In this document: positions 8,268-22,739 of the stretch, in pieces
Numbering within the stretch: the stretch's first letter is position 1
How the letters are laid out: every line of letters begins with the position of its first letter
Assembly (NCBI GenBank): GCA_023229365.1
Contig: JALNZK010000002.1
Location: 62,343 to 126,342 of the forward strand
Length of the DNA stretch: 64,000 bases
Reading direction: 5' to 3'
DNA from: Pseudomonadota bacterium
GTDB lineage: Bacteria; Myxococcota_A; Polyangia; JAAYKL01
Made by a program: the position numbers and the translations under genes
The notes under the pieces: model-generated
What the model was told of the DNA's origin: nothing
Database searches by the model: none
What the model saw: only the letters and a program-made list of their open reading frames with translations

Positions 8268-8270
8268 AGG

Positions 8271-8341: not shown

Positions 8342-8343
8342 AG

Positions 8344-8416
8344 TGAGACCAGACGGACTTGAACCGTCACCTACTTCCTTAAGAGGGAAGAATGCTGCCG
8401 CTAACACCTTGGTCCC
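8344..8416 (-). tRNA. tRNA-Lys (CTT)
   Basis: Acceptor GGGACCA/TGGTCTC, anticodon stem CTTCC/GGAAG with loop CTCTTAA, T-arm GACGG-TTCAAGT-CCGTC. Confidence 0.6.
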
Positions 8417-8421
8417 AAAAA

Positions 8422-8703
8422 TCATTCAAAATCCACAATCTGACAACGACGATCAGAGTGATATTTTCCCAACACAACTTCCAACATTTCTTTATCAGAA
8501 AGAATTCCCTTGTCCGACAAAGTAGAAACTAAATTGCCGAGCACTTCGGCAAGTCTTTTGATCCTATCTTCGATTCCATTGTGCCTGTCGTAGAAGTCAT
8601 CCTTTCCTTCCATGACAAAATGCTCAACAAATTGTTCAACAGAAAATTCCTCAACAAATTCACCAGTGCTTGGGTGCGGAGTACCAAATCTTACTGTTTT
8701 CAC
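8422..8703 (-). CDS. hypothetical protein
   Basis: 93 aa ORF. Confidence 0.35.
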   Translation of the reverse strand: MKTVRFGTPHPSTGEFVEEFSVEQFVEHFVMEGKDDFYDRHNGIEDRIKRLAEVLGNLVSTLSDKGILSDKEMLEVVLGKYHSDRRCQIVDFE

Positions 8704-8918
8704 GATTCACCTCCTCCAAATAACGCTTCCAAATCTTCAGCGTCAATCACTCGCTGTCCATCGCTCAGTTGATAGACTTTCAGCTTCACGCCACCTAAAT
8801 CCAAAACGCCTCTGTGTGTGGCGAATGGAACTTCACCATCCAATTCTGGCGGTTCGGCAGGAAGAGACTCCCACTCCACCCCATCCAACAAAATTTGTAT
8901 TGGAGATTTGGATTCCAT
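8700..8918 (-). CDS. hypothetical protein
   Basis: 72 aa ORF with a consensus promoter 9 nt upstream. Confidence 0.4.
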   Translation of the reverse strand: MESKSPIQILLDGVEWESLPAEPPELDGEVPFATHRGVLDLGGVKLKVYQLSDGQRVIDAEDLEALFGGGES

Positions 8919-8927
8919 ATTGCCCTC

Positions 8928-8955
8928 ATTATACTTCAGAAATTGACGTTGTAAA
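8928..8955 (-). promoter_or_regulatory. sigma70-like promoter (TTTACA-N16-TATAAT on minus strand)
   Basis: Plus strand reads ATTATACTTCAGAAATTGACGTTGTAAA. Confidence 0.6.
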
Positions 8956-9207
8956 CCAATTCATTACCACGGCTTTCATTTGATCGCCAAACTCTTCAAT
9001 AGCTGCCTCAACCTCCCTGAAATCATCCCCTTCCTGCCACAAAACATCAGAACACTCCATCATCCCCTTCGGACTAAAATCAAACAAACGCTCAACAACT
9101 TCAAGTTTCTGCTCTCTTGTTAGTTGCATCTCATCCTCCACAACCACAAGGACTAAAATCCATATTTCGTTCTTTGGATAATTTATCAATACTTCCGTCT
9201 TCTGCAC
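8929..9207 (-). CDS. hypothetical protein
   Basis: 92 aa ORF. Confidence 0.3.
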   Translation of the reverse strand: MQKTEVLINYPKNEIWILVLVVVEDEMQLTREQKLEVVERLFDFSPKGMMECSDVLWQEGDDFREVEAAIEEFGDQMKAVVMNWFTTSISEV

Positions 9208-9400
9208 ATGTTTTACAAATTACCACATGTTCTTGACCATCGTGATATAATCGACAACCAACAAATATTCCGCACGACTCACAAGGAAATCCATCTCTGG
9301 CTTCGTTGGCTAAATTCCAATTACTCATTTTACATGTCCCCAATTTGCTATAGCAAGTGATTCTGTCCAGCGTCCAAACAGTGGATGCTCCCAAAACCAC
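9131..9400 (-). CDS. Cys-rich zinc-ribbon protein
   Basis: 89 aa with CESCG...CKTC...CGCGG cysteine pairs. Confidence 0.3.
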   Translation of the reverse strand: MVLGASTVWTLDRITCYSKLGTCKMSNWNLANEARDGFPCESCGIFVGCRLYHDGQEHVVICKTCAEDGSIDKLSKERNMDFSPCGCGG

Positions 9401-9525
9401 TCGTTATTCACCAATGGCGGATTTAATATCCTTTTCCATCCATTGGCCCTCAACTTTGCACGCCTTTGCCAACTATCTGTCAGCATTTCAGCAACTTCTG
9501 TCAGTGCTTTTTCACCAATAGTCAT
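9325..9525 (-). CDS. hypothetical protein
   Basis: 66 aa ORF. Confidence 0.3.
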   Translation of the reverse strand: MTIGEKALTEVAEMLTDSWQRRAKLRANGWKRILNPPLVNNEWFWEHPLFGRWTESLAIANWGHVK

Positions 9526-9539
9526 GATTATTCTCCAGG

Positions 9540-9611
9540 GTGACTAACGGGAGTCGAACCCGCTAAAACCTGATCCACAGTCAGGCCCCTAACCGTTCGG
9601 GATTAGCCACC
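9540..9611 (-). tRNA. tRNA-His (GTG)
   Basis: The extra 5-prime G(-1) is encoded and pairs with discriminator C. Acceptor GTGGCTA/TAGTCAC, anticodon stem CCTGA/TCAGG with loop CTGTGGA. Confidence 0.6.
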
Positions 9612-9866
9612 ATATTTCGTAATCCTAATCGACACCCACTCTGACTCTCCTCTTGGAAGAATACCAACCTGAAGCACGTTGTCCATTTTCCAATCAACAA
9701 CGGAATCATCGCAATATAACGAAAATTCCGATATAATGTCCTCAACATACAATCCTAAATCTTCCCAAAAAGCTGCTGATTGGAAAGCAATTCTCTGAAT
9801 TGACAAAAGCAATCGTCTTATTTGTACTCTGGTTATATTTTTTCCACATAACAATGCCAAGTCCAT
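9603..9866 (-). CDS. hypothetical protein
   Basis: 87 aa ORF. Its 3-prime end overlaps the tRNA by a few nucleotides. Confidence 0.3.
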   Translation of the reverse strand: MDLALLCGKNITRVQIRRLLLSIQRIAFQSAAFWEDLGLYVEDIISEFSLYCDDSVVDWKMDNVLQVGILPRGESEWVSIRITKYGG

Positions 9867-10018
9867 GTCACACCTCCATGATCTAAATCGATGTTATAGC
9901 CAGTTTTAGTGATTTTGATTATAACACCATCACCCGCCCGTTTGGGACACAACACCTTAACCCTATCGCCAATTTCAAGTAATTTTTTCATAAGCAGGAG
10001 TGCTAGGATTCGGACCAA
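9833..10018 (-). CDS. hypothetical protein
   Basis: 61 aa ORF. Its 3-prime end overlaps the tRNA-Trp 3-prime end, so the exact stop is uncertain. Confidence 0.25.
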   Translation of the reverse strand: MVRILALLLMKKLLEIGDRVKVLCPKRAGDGVIIKITKTGYNIDLDHGGVTWTWHCYVEKI

Positions 10019-10065
10019 GATCGACGGTTTTGGAGACCGTTATGCTACCATTGCACCACACTCCT
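9995..10065 (-). tRNA. tRNA-Trp (CCA)
   Basis: Acceptor AGGAGTG/CACTCCT is perfect. Anticodon stem ACGGT/ACCGT with loop CTCCAAA. T-arm TTCGAAT-like. Confidence 0.6.
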
Positions 10066-10071
10066 TCGCAG

Positions 10072-10146
10072 CAGCACCGCCAGGACTCGAACCCGGATCG
10101 CCTCGATTTGGAATCGAGTGCCCTAAGCCATTTGGACCACGGTGCT
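10072..10146 (-). tRNA. tRNA-Trp (CCA), second copy
   Basis: Acceptor AGCACCG/CGGTGCT, anticodon stem CTCGA/TCGAG with loop TTCCAAA, T-arm CCGGG-TTCGAGT-CCTGG. Confidence 0.55.
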
Positions 10147-10223
10147 GTATTTGAATGCTGTGGGTCGTGTGGGCGTGGCATTGCTAGGCAACGGCGTTTC
10201 CTCGGAACACCACAGCATTCAAG

Positions 10224-10302
10224 AGTCGGCAGGCGGAATCGAACCACTTAACATCTGATTTGCAATCAGACCCCCAGCCTTCGGAGATTAGTTTCTGCCG
10301 AC
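10224..10302 (-). tRNA. tRNA-Cys (GCA), atypical long D-region
   Basis: Perfect acceptor GTCGGCA/TGCCGAC. Anticodon stem TCTGA/TCAGA with loop TTGCAAA. T-loop TTCGATT. At 79 nt it carries about 6 extra nucleotides in the D-arm region. Confidence 0.45.
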
Positions 10303-10308
10303 AATTCA

Positions 10309-10386
10309 GTGGAGCTAGAGGGAGTCGCACCCTCAGTTACCAACGTACCCATTGTAGGTTTTACGTTAGACTCGCTTTGTAGCCCC
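10309..10386 (-). tRNA. tRNA-like element, anticodon undetermined
   Basis: Acceptor GGGGCTA/TAGCTCC (one G-U pair) and T-arm GAGGG-TGCGACT-CCCTC are clear. No canonical 5-bp/7-nt anticodon arm can be folded, so this may carry an insertion or intron or be a decoy. Confidence 0.35.
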
Positions 10387-10614
10387 TTATCTTTTTGGAC
10401 CTTGCCAATCATCCCTGTATTTATATGTAAATTCAGCATCAATTGGCGTGTTCAATCCTTCCTCTCGCAACATTTCCTCAAGAGCATCAGCCACTTCATC
10501 ATAAACATCACAACGCTCTTGTTCTACGGCCCAAGTCCATGTGCTGCCGGTAGGCGTATGACTTGCTTTTTCCCTTAATTGAGCAATATATGCTCTAATC
10601 TTTTCCGACTTCAT
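10387..10614 (-). CDS. hypothetical protein
   Basis: 75 aa ORF. Confidence 0.35.
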   Translation of the reverse strand: MKSEKIRAYIAQLREKASHTPTGSTWTWAVEQERCDVYDEVADALEEMLREEGLNTPIDAEFTYKYRDDWQGPKR

Positions 10615-10813
10615 CTTTCTTTCCCTTTTTCTTCTTTTCTTTTGGTGCTGATTTCAAACTTTCAATCAAAACTTTTACCTCAGCATTTTCCGCAAGTTTA
10701 GTTATCAACTCATTCAATCCATGAATCTCCAAACCTTGCCTTGTCGTTTGTTTCACAAGGTCTTGTATTACACCCTGTGGATCAGTTTGACAGCGTTCTT
10801 CAAAGGTTATCAT
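10595..10813 (-). CDS. hypothetical protein (Lys-rich C-terminus)
   Basis: 72 aa ORF. Confidence 0.35.
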   Translation of the reverse strand: MITFEERCQTDPQGVIQDLVKQTTRQGLEIHGLNELITKLAENAEVKVLIESLKSAPKEKKKKGKKDEVGKD

Positions 10814-10814
10814 T

Positions 10815-10997
10815 TTACCCTCTCACAACATCATGGATTTTTGACGGAGCTTGAACAACATCTATGATTTCAAAACCAGGAGGCATATATTTTTGTGCCT
10901 CATCCCAAGCTTCGCTCACACAAGCGGCGGCTACACTGATCTTTGGTGTCTTAACCTTTTCCTTGATGTTTTTCTTGAACTTTACAAGATATTGCAT
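10815..10997 (-). CDS. hypothetical protein
   Basis: 60 aa ORF. Confidence 0.3.
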   Translation of the reverse strand: MQYLVKFKKNIKEKVKTPKISVAAACVSEAWDEAQKYMPPGFEIIDVVQAPSKIHDVVRG

Positions 10998-11166
10998 GTT
11001 TCATCCTTTGCATCAAAATTTACACAATCACATTCCCAGCAGCAGCCTTCTTCGTCATGTGCTTCTGAAAGATGCCCACAGGAACATATCATTTTCTTAT
11101 ATCGACTGCAAGAGGGGTCGTGACCACCTCTCAAATCCCTTTCGCATTCGCTACATTCGATGCTCA
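10982..11166 (-). CDS. Cys-rich small protein
   Basis: The listed ORF's N-terminal extension runs through two tRNA genes. I shortened it to the internal Met MSIECSECERD..., which has an AAGGAG Shine-Dalgarno upstream. The protein is 61 aa with multiple CxxC pairs. Confidence 0.35.
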
Positions 11167-11182
11167 TATCATTCTCCTTTAG

Positions 11183-11253
11183 CTGCCCCGTAAGGAATCG
11201 AACCTTATCTTTCTCGTTCAGAGCGAGACGTGCGGCCACTACACCACGGGGCA
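11183..11253 (-). tRNA. tRNA-Gln (CTG)
   Basis: Acceptor TGCCCCG/CGGGGCA is perfect. Anticodon stem TCTCG/CGAGA with loop CTCTGAA. T-arm TAAGG-TTCGATT-CCTTA. Confidence 0.6.
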
Positions 11254-11259
11254 AAATAG

Positions 11260-11331
11260 CTGGGCTGGAAGGATTCGAACCTTCACGAACAGATTCAAAG
11301 TCTGTCAGGCTAACCGTTACCTCACAGCCCA
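11260..11331 (-). tRNA. tRNA-Gln (TTG)
   Basis: Acceptor TGGGCTG/CAGCCCA is perfect. Anticodon stem ACAGA/TCTGT with loop CTTTGAA. T-arm GAAGG-TTCGAAT-CCTTC. Confidence 0.6.
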
Positions 11332-11429
11332 AAAATTTGGTAAATATTTCGGTGTTCCACAGCTTAAACTGCCGAGGTTAGAGGCTGTCCATCCTCACCG
11401 AGGTTATCGGCCACCGTATCGCCAACTTG

Positions 11430-11510
11430 GGACATTTAGCAGGGGCAGAAGGAATTGAACCTCCGAGTGCTTTCGCATGCAGCTTCAAAGACTGCCGGGG
11501 TCTGCCAACA
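11430..11510 (-). tRNA. tRNA-like element, anticodon undetermined (possible degenerate or insert-containing tRNA)
   Basis: A T-arm (GGAGG-TTCAATT-CCTTC) and a G-rich acceptor are present. The putative anticodon region contains a GCATGC palindrome inside a 13-nt loop, so no canonical anticodon arm forms. Confidence 0.3.
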
Positions 11511-11529
11511 ACCCCAATACCCCCATGTT

Positions 11530-11612
11530 TGCAACCAACTGGAATCGAACCAATATTTCTCCGGTGTCGGGAACGTTTTGCCTTAGGCCGCTTTTTGCCA
11601 ACCCTTGTTCTA
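11530..11612 (-). tRNA. tRNA-like element or tRNA pseudogene
   Basis: A T-arm (ATTGG-TTCGATT-CCAGT) and a 3-prime acceptor strand TGGTTGC are present. No matching 5-prime acceptor strand or anticodon arm was found. Confidence 0.25.
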
Positions 11613-11654
11613 GAATTGAATTAGTTATTACGACCCCTTAAACTATAGTTGCAA

Positions 11655-11728
11655 GTGAGACCGTTGGGATTCGCACCCAAAACCTACGGCTTAAAAGGCC
11701 GTTGCTCTACTAATTGAGCTACGATCCC
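11655..11728 (-). tRNA. tRNA-Lys (TTT)
   Basis: Acceptor GGGATCG/CGGTCTC with G-U pairs. Anticodon stem ACGGC/GCCGT with loop CTTTTAA. T-arm TTGGG-TGCGAAT-CCCAA. Confidence 0.55.
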
Positions 11729-11818
11729 ATATAAGGAAAAGATTGCCAATCTTTATTACAGCAGCACAACCTTTGCAGGAAACCCTGGGAAAAGGATTTT
11801 ATGGCCACAAACCTTGAG

Positions 11819-11890
11819 TGGGTCCACTCGGAATCGAACCGAGGTCAAAACATTAAGAGTGTTCTATTCTAGCCGCTGAACTATGGACCC
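11819..11890 (-). tRNA. tRNA-Lys (CTT), second copy
   Basis: Acceptor GGGTCCA/TGGACCC, anticodon stem GAACA/TGTTT with loop CTCTTAA, T-arm CTCGG-TTCGATT-CCGAG. Confidence 0.55.
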
Positions 11891-11922
11891 AAAGGATAAA
11901 CCAAATTGTCAAAGATCACAAG

Positions 11923-11993
11923 TGGGTCCACGGGGAATCGAACCCCGATAAACTGGGTAAAAGCCAGTTATTCTGCCATTGAATTACGAACCC
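11923..11993 (-). tRNA. tRNA-Lys (TTT), second copy
   Basis: Acceptor GGGTTCG/TGGACCC, D-stem ATTC/GAAT, anticodon stem ACTGG/CCAGT with loop CTTTTAC, T-arm CGGGG-TTCGATT-CCCCG. Confidence 0.55.
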
Positions 11994-12643
11994 TACAACC
12001 ACTCTTCATTCACAAAACCACAATATTCTTGAATTGCTCCATAAATGTGTTGCACCATATGAGTGTCGCACACCCTTAAAGAACAAACTCCAAACTTATG
12101 CTTATTCTTTTTATACCCGCCACCTTCTCCCTCTTTGAAAACTCCCTTTCGCAAACTGCTATGGTCTAATTTCAAAATTCCAAGCCAATAATCTTCAATC
12201 TCTTTTTTTGATAGACCATTGTTTAAATAACAATTGATGCATATTGTATACTTTTGTTTTGGGAAGTAGGTATCCACAAATTTTTTAAATGCACAAATGA
12301 CATTCGCATCCGTATTCGCCAAGCTTGCCACATTTCTACTTTTTGTTCCTTCTGCCCAATACAGCGTACAACCCAACAAATGCTGCAACTCTCCCTTTTT
12401 CGCCTGCTCCCTCCCCTCTTGCTGATATTGTTTCCTAATTGCCAAATATTTTTTTCTTGTTCCTTCTTTGCCAGCAAACCCTATTCTTCCATCTAAATTC
12501 TTGCGTTTCGTTTGCGACATTTTTATGGGGCGTGTCCATACACTTGCTGTTGATTTAGACACACCCAACAAATTCACTATTTCACCAAGCGACTTACCTT
12601 CTTTCCTCAATTGTTTGGCTTTTTCTTTTAACTCTTTTTTCAT
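11993..12643 (-). CDS. HTH-domain protein, putative LAGLIDADG-like homing endonuclease
   Basis: An N-terminal helix-turn-helix (SLGEIVNLLGVSKSTASVW) is followed by an LLGCTLYWAEGTKS segment that resembles the LAGLIDADG/GEG dodecapeptide. The gene abuts the 5-prime end of tRNA-Lys inside the tRNA array. Confidence 0.4.
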   Translation of the reverse strand: MKKELKEKAKQLRKEGKSLGEIVNLLGVSKSTASVWTRPIKMSQTKRKNLDGRIGFAGKEGTRKKYLAIRKQYQQEGREQAKKGELQHLLGCTLYWAEGTKSRNVASLANTDANVICAFKKFVDTYFPKQKYTICINCYLNNGLSKKEIEDYWLGILKLDHSSLRKGVFKEGEGGGYKKNKHKFGVCSLRVCDTHMVQHIYGAIQEYCGFVNEEWL

Positions 12644-12698
12644 AATAGAACCTTGCCTTTCTACCTATATATAATAGCAAAGTTCTATTTTTTTCAAG

Positions 12699-12772
12699 TC
12701 GTGGCTTTGAGAGTCGAACTCAACACGGAATCCTTATCAGGGATTCCAGGGCAAACCGGCCCGTCAGCCACG
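12699..12772 (-). tRNA. tRNA-Ile (GAT)
   Basis: Acceptor CGTGGCT/AGCCACG is perfect. Anticodon stem (GG)AATCC/GGATT(CC) with loop CTGATAA. T-arm TTGAG-TTCGACT-CTCAA. Confidence 0.6.
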
Positions 12773-12777
12773 TATTT

Positions 12778-13488
12778 TCAATTCAAACTCGGATCGCACT
12801 TTGGAAACATATCAAAGAACGAACTTTTCCTTTCTTTCAATGGTTTTGATTCATACTTATACTTTTCATCAAGAGACCCCAGTCCCCTGGGATAACCCTC
12901 CAAAACTGTCAAACAACCTACAGCATCGCCCCAGGTCCAGTTGTTGGCAAGAGACTCTTTTGCAAACTCTGCCATGTAAGCTCTTGCTCTTGGAACCAAG
13001 CCATCATCCATCTTGTCGTTATACAAATCTTTTGCATAACTTAGAAGCCTGATAGCTTCCATAAGCACCAACAAATAACTTTTTTTTCCAAAATCCAATG
13101 GCACACCCAGAAGCATGTTACCTTCTGTTGCCACAACGCAAACAAAGGAAAAATCACCCAAAGCCACAGGAGTCACACCTGAAAGCATCAATTTTGAACT
13201 AAATTGTGACAATTCCTTCAAAGCATCGAGTGGTATAGTATTAAATTTATCAAACAAATGTTGAAGCAACTTCATTACCCTCCGTCCTTGCAAAGCAACA
13301 GGATCATCGGGTGGCAAATTATCAATCCTTGGAATTGTGTCCATCATAATGCTCCTAAAGCCAATAAAAAAAGCCCTGTCCAGTTTTTTACCTGAACGGG
13401 GCTTTTCAATACCAACCCGGCTCAGGCATTTGTCCTGAGCCACGGTGCAACTCAGAACAGATCGCCAGTAATGCAGCAATGCTGCCAC
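12778..13488 (-). CDS. hypothetical protein
   Basis: 236 aa ORF with a probable GTG start. Confidence 0.45.
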   Translation of the reverse strand: MAALLHYWRSVLSCTVAQDKCLSRVGIEKPRSGKKLDRAFFIGFRSIMMDTIPRIDNLPPDDPVALQGRRVMKLLQHLFDKFNTIPLDALKELSQFSSKLMLSGVTPVALGDFSFVCVVATEGNMLLGVPLDFGKKSYLLVLMEAIRLLSYAKDLYNDKMDDGLVPRARAYMAEFAKESLANNWTWGDAVGCLTVLEGYPRGLGSLDEKYKYESKPLKERKSSFFDMFPKCDPSLN

Positions 13489-13537
13489 TTTTGTTTCTGT
13501 TGTTTTTGTTGCTTCGACATTATTCTTTTTCCTTCAG

Positions 13538-13611
13538 TGGCGGGAGTAGGATTTGAACCTACGGCCTCAAGGTTATGAGCCTTGCGAGCTACCAGACTGC
13601 TCCACCCCGCA
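13538..13611 (-). tRNA. tRNA-Met (CAT), initiator-like (1:72 mismatch)
   Basis: A standard 73-nt cloverleaf. Acceptor TGCGGGG/TCCCGCC has an unpaired position 1:72. D-stem GAGC/GCTC. Anticodon stem CAAGG/CCTTG with loop CTCATAA. T-arm GTAGG-TTCAAAT-CCTAC. Confidence 0.55.
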
Positions 13612-13632
13612 TCATGTTTTCAAAAATTAAGT

Positions 13633-13703
13633 GGCAGGGGCGGGGGATGATCCCGCTTTCATTTGGTTATGAGCCAAATAAGATAACCGTACCTACCCCC
13701 TGC
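13633..13703 (-). tRNA. tRNA-Met or tRNA-Ile2 (CAT)
   Basis: Acceptor GCAGGGG/CCCCTGC is perfect. Anticodon stem TTTGG/CCAAA with loop CTCATAA. The T-loop is atypical (ATCATCC). Confidence 0.45.
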
Positions 13704-13996: not shown

Positions 13997-14629
13997 TTAT
14001 CCCAATGGTCCATCAATGTGCTTGACATCCTCAGCACGAATTCGTTTGCCAAAACAAGATTCCCGCCCAAAGCCATCCATCAACTCATGTGCCCGCTTTT
14101 CTCCATAGCACCACACCATTTCCTGTTCTCTGGAAATGTCCTCCACCTTCATCATACGCATCAACCAAATGAAGTGTTGCAGATAGCTGATCCACGGGTC
14201 GATTTGTTCTTGCAGTTGCTCTCTTGAATATCTTACCAACGTTGAGGGCAACATCGACTTTTCAAGTTTTGTCAACTCCCGATCTTTCGTAATACGCAAA
14301 ATCTCCAACTCTTGTTTTACTTTTGCGAAACCCTCAGCAAGATGATGCCAAATAAAATGAGCATCGTCCTTGTCCAGCTTCAACATCACAATCGTTTCTG
14401 CCAATGCGGCCTCGGCGGCTTCTTTTGTGCTAAACACACTCAGTCGCCAATCCTCCCTTTCCTCGTTCTCAAACCTCAAAGTTCCTTTTCTACATATGCC
14501 GTCAGGGCTGGGAAACAGCATTTCAACGGTTGCTTTTGCTGGCTGCTTATCTATGGCAGCACAGTCTCCACGTAAAACCCAAACGGTATCTCCACGACCA
14601 AATTCAACACCGTCAATTGTGGTTGGCAT
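13997..14629 (-). CDS. hypothetical protein
   Basis: 210 aa ORF. Confidence 0.45.
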   Translation of the reverse strand: MPTTIDGVEFGRGDTVWVLRGDCAAIDKQPAKATVEMLFPSPDGICRKGTLRFENEEREDWRLSVFSTKEAAEAALAETIVMLKLDKDDAHFIWHHLAEGFAKVKQELEILRITKDRELTKLEKSMLPSTLVRYSREQLQEQIDPWISYLQHFIWLMRMMKVEDISREQEMVWCYGEKRAHELMDGFGRESCFGKRIRAEDVKHIDGPLG

Positions 14630-15366
14630 TATTTCCCCAGGGCTTTTGTCAAAATGTCATTTGATTCAATGCTCTCAACCGGCGTCTTAGGTTGCCCACC
14701 CCTTTTATCAGCGATACTCGCTAATAATTCTTCCAATTCTTTGTCGGAAATCTCCGATGTATTGGTTTCCAACTGCTCTATCCCACGGTCTATTTCATCA
14801 AGCTTCGTGGAAATAATTTTTTTTGCTTTGTCAAGATTGTCCCGATCCTTTGTCATAGCGACCAAATCTTGAGCAAGCTGTCTGGTTTCGGTGTCTTTTA
14901 TATCTGCGGAGGATTTAATGCCCAAACTTTTTAGTTTTTGTGTTTTAGTTGCAATTTGGGTACTCATCGTCAACAACACCGTATCCAATTTCTCCAGTTT
15001 CCCCGCACACACTTTTCTTTTGATTTTTAATTGTTTTAATTCATCTATTGGCACCGGCTTTGTGCTGTTATCGTCCTTGATATAAACCCCCGAAAGATCA
15101 TTGTGGCCGATATTTGTTTTGGCTGTTAAAACAAATTTAGTGGAACTCGGCACTTCCACATAATAGACGACTTCTACTCCATCCACAGTAGCTTTCAAAG
15201 TCTGTTCTGGATGCGTGGTATAATGAATGCAATCCTTTCCATCAACCTGCAAAGTGGCATCGCTGGCAACTTCGATGGTATGCTTGTCGCTGACATAGAC
15301 CCCCTTGTGCAAGTCTGGGGCACAACCACAAAAGCACAGCAATGTCAAAATAATTGTCTTATTCAT
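14629..15366 (-). CDS. putative lipoprotein with coiled-coil C-terminal region
   Basis: The N-terminal signal peptide carries a lipobox-like LLCFCGC. The C-terminal half is charged and heptad-rich. A promoter lies about 100 nt upstream. Confidence 0.45.
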   Translation of the reverse strand: MNKTIILTLLCFCGCAPDLHKGVYVSDKHTIEVASDATLQVDGKDCIHYTTHPEQTLKATVDGVEVVYYVEVPSSTKFVLTAKTNIGHNDLSGVYIKDDNSTKPVPIDELKQLKIKRKVCAGKLEKLDTVLLTMSTQIATKTQKLKSLGIKSSADIKDTETRQLAQDLVAMTKDRDNLDKAKKIISTKLDEIDRGIEQLETNTSEISDKELEELLASIADKRGGQPKTPVESIESNDILTKALGK

Positions 15367-15463
15367 GGTCTACTCCTTTTAAGAGTGCAAAAGAACCACT
15401 GACCGTGCCCTCTTCTGCCTAGATGATGTTATTAAACCGCATCCGGTCAGTGGCTCCTGTTAC

Positions 15464-15491
15464 ATTATACTCCAGAAACTTGCCTTGTAAA
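15464..15491 (-). promoter_or_regulatory. sigma70-like promoter (TTTACA-N16-TATAAT on minus strand)
   Basis: Plus strand reads ATTATACTCCAGAAACTTGCCTTGTAAA. It sits directly downstream (in transcription sense) of the terminator hairpin at 15493-15528. Confidence 0.6.
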
Positions 15492-15492
15492 C

Positions 15493-15528
15493 CAAAAAAA
15501 AATGCCGGATTTTATGGATAATCCGGCA
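15493..15528 (-). terminator. rho-independent terminator
   Basis: Stem GCCGGATT/AATCCGGC with the following A9 run on the plus strand, which is a U-run on the minus transcript. It ends the long 3-prime UTR of gene 15843..16397. Confidence 0.6.
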
Positions 15529-15530
15529 AA

Positions 15531-15740
15531 AACCTCTGGTGGTTAGGACGACCAGATGCGTCCCAGTGTGTTGAGGAACAACTGACAAATCCCAGATGTT
15601 GTGGAGACACCTGACAAAACCTCTGGCTAGGTAGGCGAAACCAGTAATGCCCAGGTGTTGTGGTGACACCTGCTGAAACCTCTGATTTATAGGCAATCAG
15701 ATAAAAGCCTCGGGTTTATGTGGAGAAAACCAGATGAAAA
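15531..15740 (-). repeat. tandem array of about 7 degenerate 29-33 nt hairpin repeats in the 3-prime UTR
   Basis: Two interleaved unit types. Type A is AAACCTCTGG-hairpin-CCAG(A)TG. Type B is CCCAGNTGTTGNGGNNACANCTGNCAAA. Each unit forms a short stem-loop. The array is non-coding, and the listed ORF 15460..15696 across it is implausible. Confidence 0.55.
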
Positions 15741-15842
15741 CCCCCACTTTATAGTCGAGGGAAGACCGCCTTTTAAGTTAAAAAGACTAACCCCGCTTTA
15801 AGGGATAGCAGTAACCCCCTTTTAAGGAGAAAGGGAAACCTC

Positions 15843-16397
15843 CTATGCGGCTCCCACAGGAAGGAGCCGGTTCACACATGATTTGTTTCTGCAAATTAGG
15901 AAAATTGCACCAATGCCAAGCAGAACGATAGTAGATGGTTCGGGACAATCCGTGGCAACATCAATTCCAGTGACACCAGCCCACGAAAACGAGTTGGGGA
16001 ATTGAATAATCTCTGCACCCGACTGGGGTGTGATAATCCACTCCCAGACATAAGTATTAGCAAAATGAACAGAATCACTACCCGTAACAGTAAATCCTTG
16101 AGGCACCCACACAATAGGATCGACTACATTGGAATCACTCTGCCACTCTACTTGCAACCACAAATGCTTTACTCTGTCCAACTGTTCGTTATTCGGAATA
16201 AAAAGCCACTTATCTTGGTTGGAAGGAATTGTAAACCACTCGGGCATTCCATAACCAGGATCAGTAATTTTTGTCCACGTCCACATCGATCCATTCAATT
16301 CGCCATGATATTGATAATCAACGACAGCAGGAATGATATCAGCAGACGCACAATTGCAGATCGACATTGCCAGCAAAATCAATAATGTTCGTTTCAT
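15843..16397 (-). CDS. secreted protein with PEP-CTERM-like sorting tail
   Basis: Start reassigned to MKRTLLILLAMSICNCASA (signal peptide), because the residues upstream of it are translated from the promoter. The C-terminus DCPEPSTIVLLGIGAIFLICRNK is PEP motif, then transmembrane helix, then basic residues. Confidence 0.5.
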   Translation of the reverse strand: MKRTLLILLAMSICNCASADIIPAVVDYQYHGELNGSMWTWTKITDPGYGMPEWFTIPSNQDKWLFIPNNEQLDRVKHLWLQVEWQSDSNVVDPIVWVPQGFTVTGSDSVHFANTYVWEWIITPQSGAEIIQFPNSFSWAGVTGIDVATDCPEPSTIVLLGIGAIFLICRNKSCVNRLLPVGAA

Positions 16398-16403
16398 GTT
16401 CCC

Positions 16404-16432
16404 ATTATACTTCAGAATCAATCAAGTGTAAA
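16404..16432 (-). promoter_or_regulatory. sigma70-like promoter (TTTACA-N17-TATAAT), leaderless arrangement
   Basis: Plus strand reads ATTATACTTCAGAATCAATCAAGTGTAAA. The -10 box ends 6 nt from the ATG at 16397. Confidence 0.55.
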
Positions 16433-17102
16433 CCACCGTTTTCAGAATTTTAATCAGCTTTTCCATATCCACATCTGCGGGCAACGAACGATATTCCACC
16501 CGCCCATCGTGCTTGATCTCGTAGAAACCCGGTCGTCGCTTAGCTTCTTTGATTTCTTCGGCAAATGCAGCATCCAACTTCAAGAAAATTTGTGGCCAAT
16601 CAAAATTGACGTTGTAGATACGTTCTTTGCAATGTCCGCATGACTCACAAGCATCTTCTGTAAAACTGGTCTCTTGGGTGAAGCTGACATGTACGCCCGC
16701 TGTGCCTTCCAGCATTGCATTTTTGTGTGTTTCGTATCCATAAAAGTTTTGATACTTCACCAACGGCTTAGTGAAATATCTTGCGGATTGCAACCTTACG
16801 GTCTTAGGAACCTTCATGATTGGCACATCTGACAATCTGAATGGTAATCCAGCAAAGAAGGTTTCGGCGTTAATTTCTGCCAGCGTCTGCTCAATCTTGT
16901 AAATTTCTGCCTTTAAGCTAAACACGGCATCAACAGGGTTGCTAAAAGGTTCGCCCCTTGCTTCAACCAACCAGCCGCAATCATCGTGTGGTAAACGAAG
17001 TAAGGAATGCCCGCCAGTCCCGGTCGGATTTACAGCAGCCAGAGAAACAGGCTCGCCGTCTTTTGTTAAAAGAAAAAATTCTTTTTCTAAACCAATTCTC
17101 AT
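16422..17102 (-). CDS. hypothetical protein, possible carboxylate-amine ligase (GCS2-like)
   Basis: The N-terminus MRIGLEKEFFLL resembles the G(I/V)E.EF start of glutamate-cysteine-ligase family 2 and amidoligase enzymes. This is a weak call. Confidence 0.3.
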   Translation of the reverse strand: MRIGLEKEFFLLTKDGEPVSLAAVNPTGTGGHSLLRLPHDDCGWLVEARGEPFSNPVDAVFSLKAEIYKIEQTLAEINAETFFAGLPFRLSDVPIMKVPKTVRLQSARYFTKPLVKYQNFYGYETHKNAMLEGTAGVHVSFTQETSFTEDACESCGHCKERIYNVNFDWPQIFLKLDAAFAEEIKEAKRRPGFYEIKHDGRVEYRSLPADVDMEKLIKILKTVVYT

Positions 17103-17134: not shown

Positions 17135-17839
17135 TCAGCCCTGCAATGCAATACCAAACTTCTCTCGCATCAACAGCTTTGCTTTTTGAAGCAATTGATG
17201 GATATACGGACTTGATACCCCCAATTGCTTGGCAATCTCTTTCAGTGTTTTTCTTTCAATATAATGTTCGTGAAGAATTTGTTTTGCTCTTGTTGTAAAA
17301 AATGTATCGCCAGAATGCATGGTGAACAATTCATCTACCAAGTCTGCGTTTGAAGACCGTGGATCAACAATTTGCATTTCAGTGAAGTCTACCAACTCTT
17401 CATGATATTTTATTTTTCTTTGTTTATATCCATCAAGAATGGCATTTCGCATACAGCGAATAGCATAACTAGACCATGTGCATTCATGTTGCTGGGCTAA
17501 GTCTGGTGTCCAGCTTTCCACGGCTCTCCACAAGCCCATCAAAGCATCGGAATATTCTTCGCTATTTTCTACATCTTCATTAGACTTGAGAAAAGTTAAA
17601 GCCGAAGAGCGAGCCAGCTTCAAATTGGCCTCGACGGTTGGCTTGACGAACCTTAGCTCTTGTGTGCTTTGGTCGTCTTGCAGTCCCGATGTAGAAATAG
17701 GGGACGGAAGAGTGAACGATTTTTTCTTCAAAGCAATTGTCATAAAGCCCTCGCAGACCAAAGTGTTTTTGCACTTCGGACCAACTTGCTTACACGACAA
17801 GCACTTCGGACCAACCTGCGTTGATGATTTAATAGACAT
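17135..17839 (-). CDS. sigma-70 family sigma factor (second copy)
   Basis: C-terminal region 4.2 helix-turn-helix (TLKEIAKQLGVSSPYIHQLLQKAKLLMREKF) and a region-2-like segment (ALMGLWRAVESW...YAIRCMRNAILDGYKQRK). Confidence 0.55.
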   Translation of the reverse strand: MSIKSSTQVGPKCLSCKQVGPKCKNTLVCEGFMTIALKKKSFTLPSPISTSGLQDDQSTQELRFVKPTVEANLKLARSSALTFLKSNEDVENSEEYSDALMGLWRAVESWTPDLAQQHECTWSSYAIRCMRNAILDGYKQRKIKYHEELVDFTEMQIVDPRSSNADLVDELFTMHSGDTFFTTRAKQILHEHYIERKTLKEIAKQLGVSSPYIHQLLQKAKLLMREKFGIALQG

Positions 17840-20073: not shown

Positions 20074-20367
20074 CTATGTTCCCGGCTTTTTCTGGGCTTC
20101 TTCGATTTTCTCAAGAGCATTGTTCATCCTGTCTATTCTAATTTCGATGGCAGGCTTGATATTGAGACAAATCATGGAAAAATGTTGAGCAAGGGTATCG
20201 TTTCCGTAGCCATGTTGGGGGTCATTTTTTATTGCCCTAAGAAACTCACGGGCTTCGTGAATCTCTATAATTTCTCCGCAGAGAAACAAATCGGCTGACT
20301 GCATATAAAGCCAGTCAATAATTGCCCTCAACTGTTCGCACTGTGTTTTTTCTGTATCGTTCATCAT
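20074..20367 (-). CDS. hypothetical protein
   Basis: 97 aa ORF. Confidence 0.35.
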   Translation of the reverse strand: MMNDTEKTQCEQLRAIIDWLYMQSADLFLCGEIIEIHEAREFLRAIKNDPQHGYGNDTLAQHFSMICLNIKPAIEIRIDRMNNALEKIEEAQKKPGT

Positions 20368-20662
20368 GACCTTTGGAGTTTGATAACAGAAAGTTGCCCC
20401 AACAAATAAGCCTTATACAGAGCCTGAGTTGATCGGTCGCATCATCCTTGATTGGCTCAGGAAAAAAAAGACCAATATTTTTGGACAAGGATGTGTCTTT
20501 AAATTCATCCCATACCAACGCAAGTTGTGCCTCCAATGCAGCTTCTTCGCTGCCGCCCAGCACCAAACATTCGGTACGTTTTTTGGCAAACTCGACTGCC
20601 CTTGCCATAACCTCAGCGGCATTCTCTGGCTCTTTGGGCTCTTTTCTGGTTTCAATATTCAT
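20315..20662 (-). CDS. hypothetical protein
   Basis: 115 aa ORF. Confidence 0.35.
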   Translation of the reverse strand: MNIETRKEPKEPENAAEVMARAVEFAKKRTECLVLGGSEEAALEAQLALVWDEFKDTSLSKNIGLFFPEPIKDDATDQLRLCIRLICWGNFLLSNSKGHDERYRKNTVRTVEGNY

Positions 20663-21027
20663 TTTTCCACCTTTGTTATCTTCCCAAAAATGTTATCGGC
20701 ACCAATGGTGCCATTGGTGTGTTTTTTGTTATTGCCGATTTGATAAAGCACACAACCCATTTTTTGTTTAACAGCTTCTACCAAGTGAATATAATAATGC
20801 CCCTTCACCTTGCAGAATACTATATCACCTTTTTCAACAATTGCAATACGGTGGTCTTTTTCTTTGATTGGCTCGATAGTCACCAAATCACCGCTGCTGA
20901 TCTTTGGCTCCATTGAATTACCTTTGGGTCGAATCTGGACTCTTTTTCCAGCCTTCAGGTCATCAACGTGTTTTAACCAATCCATTATTCTACATCTTTC
21001 AGAAAAACTTTTCACTTTGATTCCCAC
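20659..21027 (-). CDS. S24 family peptidase (LexA/UmuD-like protease domain)
   Basis: RPKGNSMEPKISSGDLVTIE matches the GDSMxP/GD motif of S24 peptidases. No N-terminal helix-turn-helix is evident. Confidence 0.5.
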   Translation of the reverse strand: MGIKVKSFSERCRIMDWLKHVDDLKAGKRVQIRPKGNSMEPKISSGDLVTIEPIKEKDHRIAIVEKGDIVFCKVKGHYYIHLVEAVKQKMGCVLYQIGNNKKHTNGTIGADNIFGKITKVEK

Positions 21028-22516: not shown

Positions 22517-22739
22517 TTGTCTGTTTCTTTTTGCGAAGTGCCAATAAAACCATCACACCAATGATGGAATAAAGAACTAAAATCGATGCTACAAACGCTG
22601 CTCCGAAAGCACAAAGCAAACACAAAAACGCATTATGTGGCTCAAATAACTTGACCAGACCTATATAAAGCAACAGTCCAATCGGCGTAGCCGGAATAAG
22701 CACTATTAAATACACCGTTATTTTAGCAATGCCACTCAT
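22509..22739 (-). CDS. small membrane protein
   Basis: 76 aa with two hydrophobic helices. Confidence 0.3.
   Translation of the reverse strand: MSGIAKITVYLIVLIPATPIGLLLYIGLVKLFEPHNAFLCLLCAFGAAFVASILVLYSIIGVMVLLALRKKKQTNE

What the first reader, a model, noticed from the sequence alone, without database searches (positions are those of the whole stretch)
15531..15842. A 300-nt 3-prime UTR built from about 7 degenerate 29-nt hairpin repeats between a stop codon and a terminator
Between the stop of gene 15843..16397 and its terminator at 15493-15528 lie alternating type-A (AAACCTCTGG...CCAGATG) and type-B (CCCAGNTGTTGNGG..ACANCTGNCAAA) units. Each folds into a short stem-loop. Two AACCCCNCTTTAAGG repeats follow. 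The array is not CRISPR-like because the units are too degenerate and have no spacers. It could be an array of protein-binding sites, an RNA stability or sponge element, or replication iterons embedded in a transcript.
Basis: seen in the sequence. Interest (0 to 1): 0.55.

Follow-up and report, generated by a model that had tools for sequence, protein, structure and literature searches.

The report
Tandem hairpin RNA array in phage
A large phage carries, between a strong early promoter and its terminator, a run of about a dozen 28-29-base RNA hairpins that share a C-rich loop motif; the array is kept in its closest relatives, matches no described RNA family, and most likely works as a multi-site binding platform whose partner is still unknown.

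Summary
On the minus (gene-sense) strand, window 15494-15868 holds 13 consecutive stem-loops spaced 21-33 nt apart, mostly 28-29. There are 7 A/B units, 4 'CCUUAAAG-GGGG' units, one hairpin overlapping the CDS end, and the terminator hairpin, which belongs to the same family.

The array lies in a clear transcription unit: an 11/12 sigma-70-like promoter, a leaderless PEP-CTERM gene, the array, then a U9 terminator.

Three related metagenomic phages (L212, L125, L209) keep the array. One differs by exactly one 29-nt unit. In L125 the gene is absent, and the array follows a 3-codon ORF as a near-pure ncRNA.

Stems differ between units but stay complementary: 97.5% of cells paired against 61% in shuffles. 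Loops keep CC[AUG][ACU]A in 23 of 27 hairpins.

All six single-sided transitions in stems between window and L212 keep pairing through G·U on the sense strand only.

Rfam, CRISPR/Racr, type III antitoxin, TIGR, CsrB-like, REP/BIME and iteron readings all fail defining features.

Best reading: a selected, structured phage RNA built by terminator-hairpin duplication that acts as a multivalent decoy or sponge. The main rival is a cis 3'-end stabiliser. The function is inferred, not shown.

The parts
16404..16432 (-). Promoter TTTACA-17-TATAAT with extended TTCTGAAGTATAAT. The -10 element ends 6 nt before the ATG, so the mRNA is probably leaderless.
   Evidence: 11 of 12 match. (same motif six times in the window, all on the minus strand).
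15843..16397 (-). PEP-CTERM secreted-protein gene (a moron), 184 aa. Its last 10 codons run through hairpin h0.
   Evidence: Pfam PF07589 at 22 bits, cut-off 20.7. Translation. Homologues at 49-66% identity, including one on a 2.84-Mb bacterial contig. In L212 the CDS stops before h0.
15849..15868 (-). Hairpin h0: GGCUCC-UUCCUGUG-GGAGCC.
   Evidence: L125 has CAACUCC...GGGAGUUG at the same place, which is two G-C to A-U compensatory changes.
15838..15844 (-). Conserved Shine-Dalgarno-like AGGAGGU with no start codon behind it. It can pair with the UCUCCU stretch that spans the 5' arm and loop of the next hairpin (C1).
   Evidence: conserved in L125 and L212.
15817..15835 (-). Hairpin C1: CCCUUU-CUCCUUA-AAAGGG.
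   Evidence: Model R2 hit at 24.3 bits. L212 has C->U, giving U·G.
15790..15806 (-). Hairpin C2: AUCCC-UUAAAGC-GGGGU.
   Evidence: (family D3). Conserved in L125 and L212.
15770..15785 (-). Hairpin C3: CUUUU-UAACUU-AAAAG.
15741..15761 (-). Hairpin C4: CCCUCG-ACUAUAAAG-UGGGGG, followed by UUUUC.
   Evidence: R2 hit at 23.3 bits.
15711..15733 (-). Unit A4: CUGGUUU-UCUCCACAU-AAACCCG, tail AGGCUUUU.
   Evidence: (20.9 bits). L212 has the perfect stem UUGGUUU/AAACCAG.
15682..15700 (-). Unit A3: CUGAUU-GCCUAUA-AAUCAG, tail AGGUUUC.
   Evidence: (31 bits).
15652..15672 (-). Unit B3: CAGGUGU-CACCACA-ACACCUG, tail GGCAUU.
   Evidence: (33 bits).
15623..15644 (-). Unit A2: CUGGUU-UCGCCUACCU-AGCCAG, tail AGGUUUU.
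   Evidence: L212 has AAUCAG, where both changes keep pairing through G·U.
15593..15613 (-). Unit B2: CAGGUGU-CUCCACA-ACAUCUG (one internal G·U), tail GGAUUU.
   Evidence: (34.2 bits).
15564..15584 (-). Unit B1: CAGUUGUU-CCUC-AACA(C)ACUG, tail GGACGC. This is the unit absent from L212 (a 29-nt gap).
15536..15555 (-). Unit A1: CUGGU-CGUCCUAACC-ACCAG, tail AGGUUUUU.
   Evidence: The L212 orthologue UUGAU...AUCAG carries a G-C to A-U compensatory change.
15494..15527 (-). Intrinsic terminator GCCGGAUU-AUCCAUAA-AAUCCGGC + A-U9. It is a member of the same hairpin family, with loop UCCAUAA.
   Evidence: R2 hit at 26.1 bits. 75% identical to unit B2 (family D1).
15464..15491 (-). Next promoter (TTTACA-16-TATAAT), for the lipoprotein gene 15366..14629. 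It bounds the unit on the 3' side.
   Evidence: Conserved in L209, L212 and L125.

Best explanation
**Shown.** The region is part of a minus-strand transcription unit. That unit is driven by a strong host-type early promoter and closed by a U9 intrinsic terminator. Its RNA folds into about 13 tandem stem-loops at a period of roughly 28-29 nt.

The hairpins are related to one another and to the terminator hairpin. The array therefore most likely grew by unit-wise tandem duplication of the terminator stem-loop; one exact 29-nt unit difference separates two relatives.

Selection has kept three things:
- base-pairing, while the stem sequences have drifted;
- a loop motif, (U)CC[A/U/G][A/C/U]A;
- a G-rich, then U-rich, single-stranded tail (AGG-U or GGG-) after each stem.

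**Inferred.** An RNA that shows 10 or more copies of one short loop motif on interchangeable stems, is made early from a strong promoter, and is expressed in one relative with no real gene in front of it, is most simply a trans-acting multivalent binding platform (a decoy or sponge). It would titrate a factor that reads the C-rich loops or G-rich tails.

The partner is unknown. Candidates:
- a host sequence-specific endoribonuclease or RNA-binding protein;
- G-rich RNA such as Shine-Dalgarno or GGA sequences;
- the 30S subunit.

The phage's investment in RNA repair and translation makes a translation- or RNase-related partner the most plausible. It encodes RtcB, 15 tRNAs, IF3, a peptide deformylase, and leaderless early genes.
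For: **Transcription unit.** The promoters and the terminator are all on the minus strand. No promoter-like site is found on the + strand of the scanned region, and the only two + strand terminator-like matches lie about 800 nt away, at 14710-14759. The same promoter motif occurs six times in the window, always on the minus strand.

**Structure.**
- z = -5.95 against shuffles.
- In 24 distinct units aligned to the model, 97.5% of cells are paired against 60.9 +/- 3.0 in shuffles (0/500 shuffles as high).
- 55 cells show changes on both sides, against 17.2 +/- 3.1 in shuffles (0/500).
- All 7 pairs show compensatory types.
- Slid controls reach at most 62.6%.

**Strand.**
- 22 distinct stems contain 126 Watson-Crick pairs, 8 G·U and 0 A·C.
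- In the window-versus-L212 orthologous comparison, all six single-sided transitions in stems keep a pair through G·U on the sense strand. They lie in C1, the A4 foot, A2 (two), the A1 foot and the terminator, and each would be A·C on the other strand.
- That comparison also shows one G-C to A-U double change.
- h0 shows two G-C to A-U changes against L125.

**Conservation.**
- The array is present in L212, L125 (two arrays) and L209.
- Array nucleotide identity between window and L212 is 88.9%. Neighbouring CDS are 89.6-93.0%, and the next gene's 5' UTR is 74.4%.
- The closest contigs for which no DNA could be retrieved show untranslated gaps in the same position: 486 nt in the syntenic 17.7-kb contig (P0017) and 288 nt in the 2.2-kb contig (P0003/P0018). 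A 418-nt gap also follows the homologue P0002, though that contig is not syntenic.

**Loop motif.** It is present in 23 of 27 loops. It is absent from the other terminators in the window.

**Independence from the gene.** L125 has promoter + ATGAATCAATGA + array. Bacterial homologues of the gene lack the array.

**Unit-wise change.** There is a 29-nt gap exactly equal to unit B1.

**Context.** RtcB and IF3, peptide deformylase, and tRNAs.
Against: - No binding partner is identified. About 60 proteins in the window were scanned against Pfam, with no CsrA, Hfq, ProQ/FinO, Nop, Cas6 or ToxN.
- Only four independent loci carry the array, so orthologous covariation is not statistically testable. The strong statistics come from paralogous units aligned to a model, which leans towards the structure.
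- Per-unit folding energy does not prefer the sense strand: -186.6 against -188.0 kcal/mol, with the sense strand better in 16 of 35 units.
- Many stems are weak (-1.4 to -8 kcal/mol).
- Loop conservation could partly reflect common descent of the units.
- The position just before a terminator also fits a purely cis-acting role.
Confidence: 0.45

Rival explanations
1. **Cis-acting 3'-end module.** The stacked hairpins protect the upstream mRNA from 3'->5' exonucleases and back up termination, as REP/BIME clusters do in enterobacterial 3' UTRs. They have no trans target.
For: - The array lies between a stop codon and the terminator.
- The terminator is itself a family member.
- Several units carry a hairpin followed by 3-5 U. 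The terminator-like scan finds 7 sites against 2.8 +/- 1.6 expected.
- L125 array 1 also ends an operon.
Against: - An exonuclease block does not need a conserved loop motif in 23 of 27 loops.
- Most stems are weak.
- In L125 the second array follows a 3-codon ORF, so there is nothing to protect.
- Other transcription units in the window end with a single ordinary terminator.
Confidence: 0.28
2. **Neutral by-product.** Replication slippage duplicated the terminator hairpin. The copies are decaying and have no function of their own.
For: - The units are homologous to the terminator.
- Copy number varies by one unit between relatives.
- The distribution is narrow.
Against: - Stems have diverged in sequence yet remain 97.5% paired, with compensatory changes at all 7 positions.
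- Six of six stem transitions are pair-preserving.
- The array is as conserved as the flanking CDS and more conserved than the neighbouring 5' UTR.
- It persists in lineages whose neighbouring proteins are only 64-67% identical to those of the window.
Confidence: 0.08
3. **The functional RNA is the + strand.** Read that way, the loops are UGUGGAG, UGAGGAA, UUAGGAC and UAAGGAG. That would be a CsrB/RsmZ-like sponge with GGA motifs in hairpin loops that titrates CsrA/RsmA.
For: - There are eight GGA triplets on the + strand of 15531-15842, about five of them in loops (read directly from the sequence).
- Per-unit folding energies are as good on the + strand.
Against: - No promoter-like site is found on the + strand of the scanned region, and no + strand terminator lies downstream of the array. 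The only two + strand terminator-like matches are at 14710-14759, upstream of it.
- The terminator hairpin is followed by A5 on that strand.
- The 8 internal G·U pairs and all six orthologous transitions become A·C mismatches on the + strand.
- There is no Rfam hit to any CsrB/Rsm family, even at E<=10.
- No CsrA was found among about 60 scanned proteins in the window.
Confidence: 0.07
4. **DNA-level repeats.** The units are iterons of a replication origin, or an operator, centromere or packaging array bound by a dimeric protein at dyad-symmetric sites.
For: The repeats are regularly spaced and dyad-symmetric. Lambda-type iterons look like this on paper (established knowledge, from memory).
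Against: - Half-site sequences differ between units, with only the outer C-W-G kept.
- The spacing between half-sites ranges from 4 to 12 nt.
- Strand-asymmetric G·T-preserving substitutions are unexpected for duplex DNA recognition.
- Cumulative GC skew runs straight through the site.
- No initiator or partition gene is adjacent.
Confidence: 0.05
5. **Mimic of a host defence RNA.** Candidates are RNA anti-CRISPR repeats (Racr), a pseudo-antitoxin of a type III toxin-antitoxin system, a TIGR guide array, or an anticodon-stem-loop decoy.
For: - The unit length of 28-29 nt, with a hairpin followed by a tail of about 8 nt, resembles type I-E/I-F repeats (from memory).
- Phage pseudo-ToxI arrays are known (from memory).
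- TIGR 'stem-loop arrays' exist in phages (PMC12045711).
- The phage carries RtcB and many tRNAs.
Against: - The units are too divergent from one another to copy a single host repeat.
- The B-unit pattern has 0 matches in 185,579 species genomes and 0 in IMG/VR.
- No ToxN/AbiQ-like gene is present; the next gene encodes a lipoprotein with its own promoter.
- No Nop-domain protein is present, and the loops are too short for two 8-12-nt spacers.
- The loops lack U33 and a purine at position 37, and loop length is 4-12 nt rather than 7.
Confidence: 0.07

Closest known systems
CsrB/RsmZ/RsmY and CrcZ-type protein-sponge sRNAs
   Same: One RNA shows many copies of a short motif in the loops or linkers of a chain of small hairpins and ends in an intrinsic terminator. 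The stems are free to vary and the motif is kept. Copy number varies between relatives.
   Different: - The motif here is C-rich (UCCWMA) on the transcribed strand, not GGA or an A-rich CA motif.
- There is no Rfam match.
- It is phage-encoded.
- In two lineages it sits behind a protein-coding gene.
- The partner is unknown.
REP/BIME clusters in bacterial 3' UTRs
   Same: Clusters of two alternating types of imperfect palindromes, about 30-35 nt each, lie between a stop codon and the end of the transcript. Copy number is variable.
   Different: - REPs are scattered over a genome in hundreds of copies and alternate in orientation.
- These units occur at one locus only in 64 kb.
- All units point the same way.
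- They keep a loop motif.
Multi-anti-SD sRNAs (C-rich loop sRNAs such as S. aureus RNAIII/RsaE, alpha-proteobacterial AbcR/NfeR1). Recalled from memory, not tested.
   Same: Hairpin loops rich in C/U (CUCC, CCUC, UCC) could pair with GGAG/GGA of ribosome-binding sites.
   Different: - Those sRNAs have 2-3 such loops with longer C-runs; here there are 10 or more loops with only CC conserved.
- No target was predicted or tested here.
- Each unit here also carries an SD-like tail.
Lambdoid nut sites (boxA + boxB), especially the phi21 boxB with its CUAACC hexaloop
   Same: - The position is the same: downstream of an early gene and just upstream of a terminator.
- The A1 loop contains CCUAACC, and several loops contain CUAAC. 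The phi21 boxB loop is CUAACC (PMC12550061).
   Different: - A nut site has one boxB, not a dozen.
- No N-like protein was identified.
- Most loops here are not CUAACC.
- The downstream gene has its own promoter.
- The resemblance is a lead only.
TIGR stem-loop arrays (TIGR-Tas)
   Same: Tandem stem-loops in phage genomes with variable palindromic stems, ending at a terminator (PMC12045711).
   Different: TIGR units carry two 8-12-nt spacers flanked by box C/D motifs and sit next to a Nop-domain Tas gene. Here the loops are 4-12 nt in total, and no Nop protein is found in the window.

Membership tests
CRISPR array / RNA anti-CRISPR (Racr) | Near-identical repeats separated by unique spacers (array), or a copy of a host CRISPR repeat (Racr). 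| tested here: not met
   - There are no spacers; hairpins are separated by linkers of about 8 nt.
- The units are degenerate; TRF sees only 2 copies at 83%.
- The B-unit pattern has 0 matches in 185,579 species genomes and 0 in IMG/VR.
Type III toxin-antitoxin antitoxin RNA (ToxI-like) | Near-identical tandem repeats followed by a terminator and then a ToxN/AbiQ-family endoribonuclease gene. | tested here: not met
   - The units differ in length (start-to-start spacing 21-33 nt) and in sequence.
- The gene after the terminator has its own promoter and encodes a lipobox protein with no Pfam hit.
TIGR-Tas | An adjacent Nop-domain Tas protein, and two 8-12-nt spacers per unit flanked by box C/D motifs. 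| tested here: not met
   - No Nop domain was found among about 60 proteins in the window.
- The loops are 4-12 nt, and the variable parts are complementary to each other.
- The criteria are taken from PMC12045711.
CsrB/Rsm sponge RNAs | Repeated GGA motifs in loops of the transcribed strand, and a match to the Rfam families. | tested here: not met
   - GGA lies on the non-transcribed strand.
- There is no CsrB/Rsm hit at E<=10.
REP/BIME | Many dispersed copies across the genome, with alternating orientation within clusters. | tested here: not met
   - There is one locus only in 64 kb.
- All units have the same orientation.
- Only 64 kb of a contig of about 340 kb could be examined.
REP/BIME | Located in the 3' UTR between a stop codon and the end of the transcript. 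| tested here: met
Intrinsic terminator | A G+C-rich stem immediately followed by a U-tract. | tested here: inconclusive
   - The last hairpin (15494-15527) meets the criterion fully.
- A1 has GG + U5.
- The other internal units have weak stems and 0-4 U after a GG/AGG spacer.
Replication iterons / operator array | The same protein-recognition sequence repeated at fixed geometry, with a cognate initiator or regulator gene nearby. | tested here: not met
   - Half-site sequences and spacing vary.
- Pair-preserving changes are specific to one strand.
- There is no skew shift.
- No initiator gene is adjacent.
Lambdoid nut (boxA/boxB) | A single boxB hairpin with a GNRA-like loop bound by an N protein, plus boxA. 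| tested here: inconclusive
   - The position fits.
- CUAACC is present in the A1 loop, matching the phi21 boxB loop.
- However, there are 13 hairpins, no N-like gene was found, and the boxA-like match is weak and was judged by eye only.
tRNA anticodon stem-loop mimic | A 5-bp stem, a 7-nt loop, U at position 33 and a purine at position 37. | tested here: not met
   - Stems are 4-8 bp and loops 4-12 nt.
- U33 is present in about half of the units.
- Position 37 is mostly a pyrimidine.
- There is no similarity to the phage's own tRNAs.
Any Rfam 15 family | A score at or above the gathering threshold. | tested here: not met
   - Only tRNAs pass in the window.
- The best hit in the region is anti-hemB at 28.3 bits against a cut-off of 49.5. 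That score comes mainly from the terminator.

The most novel reading that the evidence does not exclude
The array is an early-expressed phage RNA decoy aimed at the host's RNA-targeting or translation machinery. It shows a dozen copies of a UCCU/UCCA-type loop beside SD-like tails. The loops resemble the anti-Shine-Dalgarno end of 16S rRNA and the recognition sites of some MazF-type toxins.

It could act in either of two ways:
- It soaks up a sequence-specific endoribonuclease that the host uses for abortive infection. The phage's RtcB ligase and 15 tRNAs would then repair or replace what still gets cut.
- It occupies 30S anti-SD tails, so that the phage's leaderless early mRNAs, helped by a phage IF3, win the competition for ribosomes.
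Probability: 0.2. Interest if true: 0.85.

Novelty: new variant of a known kind. Interest (0 to 1): 0.5.

Why it matters
Phage non-coding RNAs with a defined architecture are few. RNA-based decoys are only now being recognised as a counter-defence class; known examples include Racr and pseudo-ToxI.

This locus offers a clean candidate with several useful properties:
- It is compact (about 375 nt).
- It is strongly promoted.
- Its structure is under selection.
- It is modular: units are gained and lost one at a time.
- It is separable from any gene, because one relative carries it essentially alone.

If it is a sponge or decoy, it would add a new motif and a new target to that class. It would also link to the poorly understood translation and RNA-repair toolkits of huge phages. 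If it is only a 3'-end stabiliser, it would be a phage counterpart of BIMEs that arose by terminator duplication, which is modest but still undescribed.

Tried and rejected
**1. DNA similarity to known phages.** None found.

**2. Relatives through the two flanking proteins in IMG/VR.** None found.

**3. Gapped A-unit pattern in IMG/VR.** 119 single chance hits, uninformative.

**4. Other pattern scans.**
- The conserved 5' segment pattern gave 0 hits in IMG/VR.
- The B-unit pattern gave 0 hits in IMG/VR and in GTDB genomes.

**5. Phage promoter motif used as a clade probe.** It gave 6 loci in IMG/VR and 15 in GTDB genomes. All were single chance-level matches with no arrays.

**6. More distant relatives of the 226-aa neighbour.** About 85 loci were checked by three methods:
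- a rule-based hairpin-cluster finder, whose only extra clusters were a coding repeat in L169 and an unrelated stretch in L199;
- nhmmer;
- covariance model R2, which found nothing below E = 0.2 outside the four arrays.

**7. Two further look-ups (P0020, P0022).** In both, a gene follows directly and there is no array.

**8. Loop-to-tail pseudoknot (CCU with AGG, CCA with UGG).** Rejected for two reasons. The linker between the stem and the tail is 0-1 nt, so it cannot span a 4-7-bp helix. The loop/tail correlation also has 5 exceptions among about 24 units.

**9. Origin from tRNA fragments.** Unit A3 resembles the phage tRNA-Cys anticodon arm by eye, but BLAST finds nothing significant between the array and the rest of the window.

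**10. Coding potential.**
- The 78-aa TTG ORF 15460..15696 is broken by the 29-nt indel in L212.
- It also runs through the terminator.

**11. Strand choice from folding energy.** Uninformative.

**12. Two-sequence covariation statistics.** No statistical power.
Full report
**What is there**

Read on the minus strand, which carries almost all the genes of the window, the stretch 15868-15494 is a chain of 13 short stem-loops. From 5' to 3' they are:
- h0 (15849-15868), which overlaps the last codons of the CDS;
- four 'C' hairpins of the form CC-UUAAAG-GGGG (C1 to C4, 15741-15835);
- seven A/B units, in the order A4, A3, B3, A2, B2, B1, A1 (15536-15733);
- the intrinsic terminator (15494-15527).

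Start-to-start spacings are 33, 29, 21, 24, 28, 33, 28, 28, 31, 29, 29 and 28 nt.

A units read CUG(N)-loop-(N)CAG-AGG-U(3-5). B units read CAG(N4)-loop-(N4)CUG-GG.

Three details need correcting:
- Alternation is imperfect in this window.
- The 'AACCCCNCTTTAAGG' element occurs 3-4 times, not twice.
- The terminator hairpin is itself a family member. It is 75% identical to unit B2 and scores 26.1 bits with the unit model.

**It is more than chance**
- Local folding gives -117.9 kcal/mol against -75.8 +/- 7.1 for shuffles, z = -5.95.
- The B-unit pattern occurs twice, against 0.00 expected.
- The array has no significant similarity to the rest of the 64 kb, the tRNAs included.
- A covariance model of the unit, run with filters off over the whole window on both strands, gives E<1 hits only inside the array.
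- Rfam has nothing above threshold except the tRNAs.

**Transcription context**

Two near-consensus sigma-70-type promoters lie on the minus strand, at 16432..16404 and 15491..15464. Both match 11 of 12 positions. The only strong terminator is at 15528..15503. The scan found no promoter-like site on the + strand, and the only two + strand terminator-like matches lie about 800 nt away, at 14710-14759.

The promoters belong to a phage-specific family, TTTACA-N9-10-TTCTGRAGTATAAT. It occurs six times in the window, always on the minus strand.

At 16397, 24760 and 3361 the ATG lies 6 nt after the -10 element, so these mRNAs are probably leaderless. The unit is therefore: promoter, leaderless 184-aa gene, array, terminator, next promoter.

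The gene encodes a signal-peptide protein with a PEP-CTERM anchor (PF07589).
- Its homologues are 49-66% identical.
- The two that could be read lie in GC-rich DNA (L004, on a 2.84-Mb bacterial contig, and L005). There they are followed by an ordinary terminator with no array.
- The gene is a host-derived passenger. The array is not part of it.

**Relatives**

The window is a metagenomic phage contig. The same proteins occur on a 340-kb contig that NCBI labels as a Proteobacteria MAG.

Exact-protein look-ups and the large family of the upstream 226-aa protein (126 homologues) gave four informative loci.

*L212* is the closest relative. Its neighbouring proteins are 81-87% identical to those of the window.
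- It has the same array at 88.9% nucleotide identity. That is as conserved as the flanking CDS (89.6-93.0%) and more conserved than the next gene's 5' UTR (74.4%).
- It lacks exactly one unit, B1, as a 29-nt gap.
- Its CDS stops before h0. So h0 is an RNA element, and the window's extra 10 codons are incidental.

*L125* has a neighbouring protein 67% identical to the window's. It carries two arrays.
- The first is a strictly alternating a-b-a-b-a-b-a series that ends an operon.
- The same promoter follows, then ATGAATCAATGA (three codons and a stop).
- The second array comes next and is homologous to the window's h0 and C units. Here the array RNA is expressed essentially on its own.

*L209* has a downstream protein 64% identical to the window's. 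It keeps the last two units, the terminator and the promoter.

*Contigs without retrievable DNA.* The syntenic 17.7-kb and 2.2-kb contigs have untranslated gaps of 486 nt and 288 nt at the same position. A 418-nt gap follows the homologue P0002, whose contig is not syntenic.

More distant relatives of the neighbouring gene (about 85 loci) have no array. This holds for a rule-based finder, nhmmer and the covariance model. IMG/VR and 185,579 species genomes hold no copy of the B unit. The element is therefore real but confined to a small clade.

**Structure and strand**

Across 24 distinct units aligned to the model:
- 97.5% of cells are paired, against 60.9 +/- 3.0 in shuffles;
- 55 cells carry changes on both sides, against 17.2 +/- 3.1;
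- all seven stem positions show several pair types;
- sliding the partner columns drops pairing to 62.6% or less.

These are paralogous units aligned to a model, so the numbers lean towards the structure. They do agree with direct reading: 22 distinct stems contain 126 Watson-Crick pairs, 8 G·U, 0 A·C and one mismatch.

Orthologous comparisons add to this:
- h0 changes from GGCUCC/GGAGCC to AACUCC/GGAGUU in L125, which is two compensatory changes.
- A1 shows G-C to A-U between window and L212.
- All six single-sided transitions in stems between window and L212 turn a Watson-Crick pair into G·U, or the reverse, on the minus strand. They lie in C1, the A4 foot, A2 (two), the A1 foot and the terminator. 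On the + strand each would be an A·C mismatch.

Folding energy does not separate the strands (-186.6 against -188.0 kcal/mol). A two-sequence alignment has no statistical power. The strand assignment therefore rests on the transcription signals plus the G·U pattern.

**What is conserved besides pairing**
- The motif CC[AUG][ACU]A is present in 23 of 27 loops. Typical loops are CUCCACA, UUCCUCAACA, GUCCUAAC and UCCAUAA. It is absent from the other terminators of the window.
- The closing C-W-G/C-W-G foot is kept.
- A GG immediately follows the stem, then U-rich sequence.
- The tails (GAGGU, GGGGU, GGGA) look like Shine-Dalgarno sequences. The loops (CCUC, CUCC, UCC) look like their complement.
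- A perfect AGGAGGU without an ORF opens the array in all three lineages that cover that part.

A loop-to-tail pseudoknot is sterically excluded, because the linker is 0-1 nt. The loop/tail correlation is also imperfect.

**Mechanism**

Shown: the array is a transcribed, structured RNA module under selection. It grew by unit-wise duplication of the terminator hairpin.

Inferred: a molecule that shows ten or more copies of a short loop motif on interchangeable stems, is made early from a strong promoter, and is expressed alone in one lineage, is most simply a trans-acting multivalent platform, that is, a sponge or decoy.

The partner is unknown. No classical RNA-binding protein was found among about 60 proteins of the window.

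The same window does encode:
- an RtcB RNA ligase and an IF3;
- a peptide deformylase;
- 15 tRNAs;
- several leaderless early genes.

A partner in translation or in RNA-cleaving host defence is therefore the most attractive guess.

The main rival is a cis-acting 3'-end stabiliser and termination module like REP/BIME clusters. It explains the position, but not the loop motif or the gene-less copy in L125.

Less likely readings are:
- neutral duplication debris;
- a + strand CsrB-like GGA sponge;
- DNA iterons;
- mimics of CRISPR repeats, type III antitoxins, TIGR arrays or anticodon arms.

Each of these fails a defining feature that was tested (see the membership table).

**Comparison with the literature**

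TIGR 'stem-loop arrays' in phages were read in PMC12045711. They need a Nop-domain protein and two 8-12-nt spacers per loop, and neither is present here.

The phi21 boxB loop is CUAACC (PMC12550061). The A1 loop contains CCUAACC, and the position before a terminator recalls nutR. A dozen hairpins without an N-like gene is not a nut site, though, so this is a lead only.

Full-text searches for phage tandem stem-loop ncRNAs and for anti-SD sponges found no description of this element. Those searches were not exhaustive.

**Verdict**

It is a new variant of the multi-hairpin, motif-displaying ncRNA kind. Its distribution is narrow and its function unproven.

Noticed in passing
window 8269-13703 (minus strand): A cluster of 15 tRNA genes: His x2, Lys x5, Trp x2, Cys, Gln x3, Ile, Met x2. 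Small ORFs lie between them. Several tRNAs are duplicated with different anticodon-arm sequences.
   Followed up: partly
window 74-1480 (-), 40304-40825 (-), 45573-46106 (-): The phage encodes an RtcB RNA ligase, a full-length translation initiation factor IF3, and a peptide deformylase. Together these form a translation and RNA-repair kit typical of huge phages.
   Followed up: partly
window 24794-24767, 16432-16404, 15491-15464, 8955-8928, 8066-8039, 3395-3368 (all minus strand): A phage-specific promoter family, TTTACA-N9-10-TTCTGRAGTATAAT. At 24760, 16397 and 3361 the ATG lies 6 nt after the -10 element, implying leaderless mRNAs. The motif is also conserved in L125, L209 and L212.
   Followed up: partly
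window 15843-16397 (-); L212 230-751: A PEP-CTERM-anchored secreted protein is carried by a phage as a moron. It is 55% identical to a protein on a 2.84-Mb bacterial contig. In the window a frame difference near the end adds 10 codons that read through RNA hairpin h0. In L212 the CDS stops earlier.
   Followed up: partly
window 16422-17102 (-): A 226-aa protein with no Pfam or PHROG hit has more than 120 homologues in metagenomic phage contigs. It has many invariant residues (G4 E6 E8 ... H126 H138 ... R189 G192 F193 Y194 E195 ... R205 S206 L207 P208). This looks like an enzyme family without a name. An Amidoligase_2 protein lies at 27537-28583.
   Followed up: no
window 17135-17839 (-) and 1619-2275 (+): There are two phage sigma factors. 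One has sigma-70 regions r2 and r4. The other is ECF-like and lies on the opposite strand.
   Followed up: no
window ~20364-20666 (-): The window differs by a 4-nt indel from the otherwise identical ENA contig (L003/L001). The indel frameshifts a 100-aa gene that is intact in the ENA assembly. This is either an assembly error or a strain variant.
   Followed up: partly
L209 980-1060: Downstream of the lipoprotein homologue there is a short run of direct repeats, (GCCTGATTGCCGG / GCCTGATTGCTGG / CCCTGATTGCCGG). It was seen while reading the locus.
   Followed up: no
L169 4830-5120: There is a long in-frame coding repeat, GCTGCGAGGGATGCTGCG... (Ala/Arg/Asp/Trp-rich). It triggered a false positive in the hairpin-cluster finder.
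   Followed up: no
window 22736-23536 (-), 52586-53917 (-), 56845-57987 (+): There are three radical-SAM proteins in one 64-kb window. Several glycosyltransferases and a UDP-galactopyranose mutase (4069-5145) are also present.
   Followed up: no
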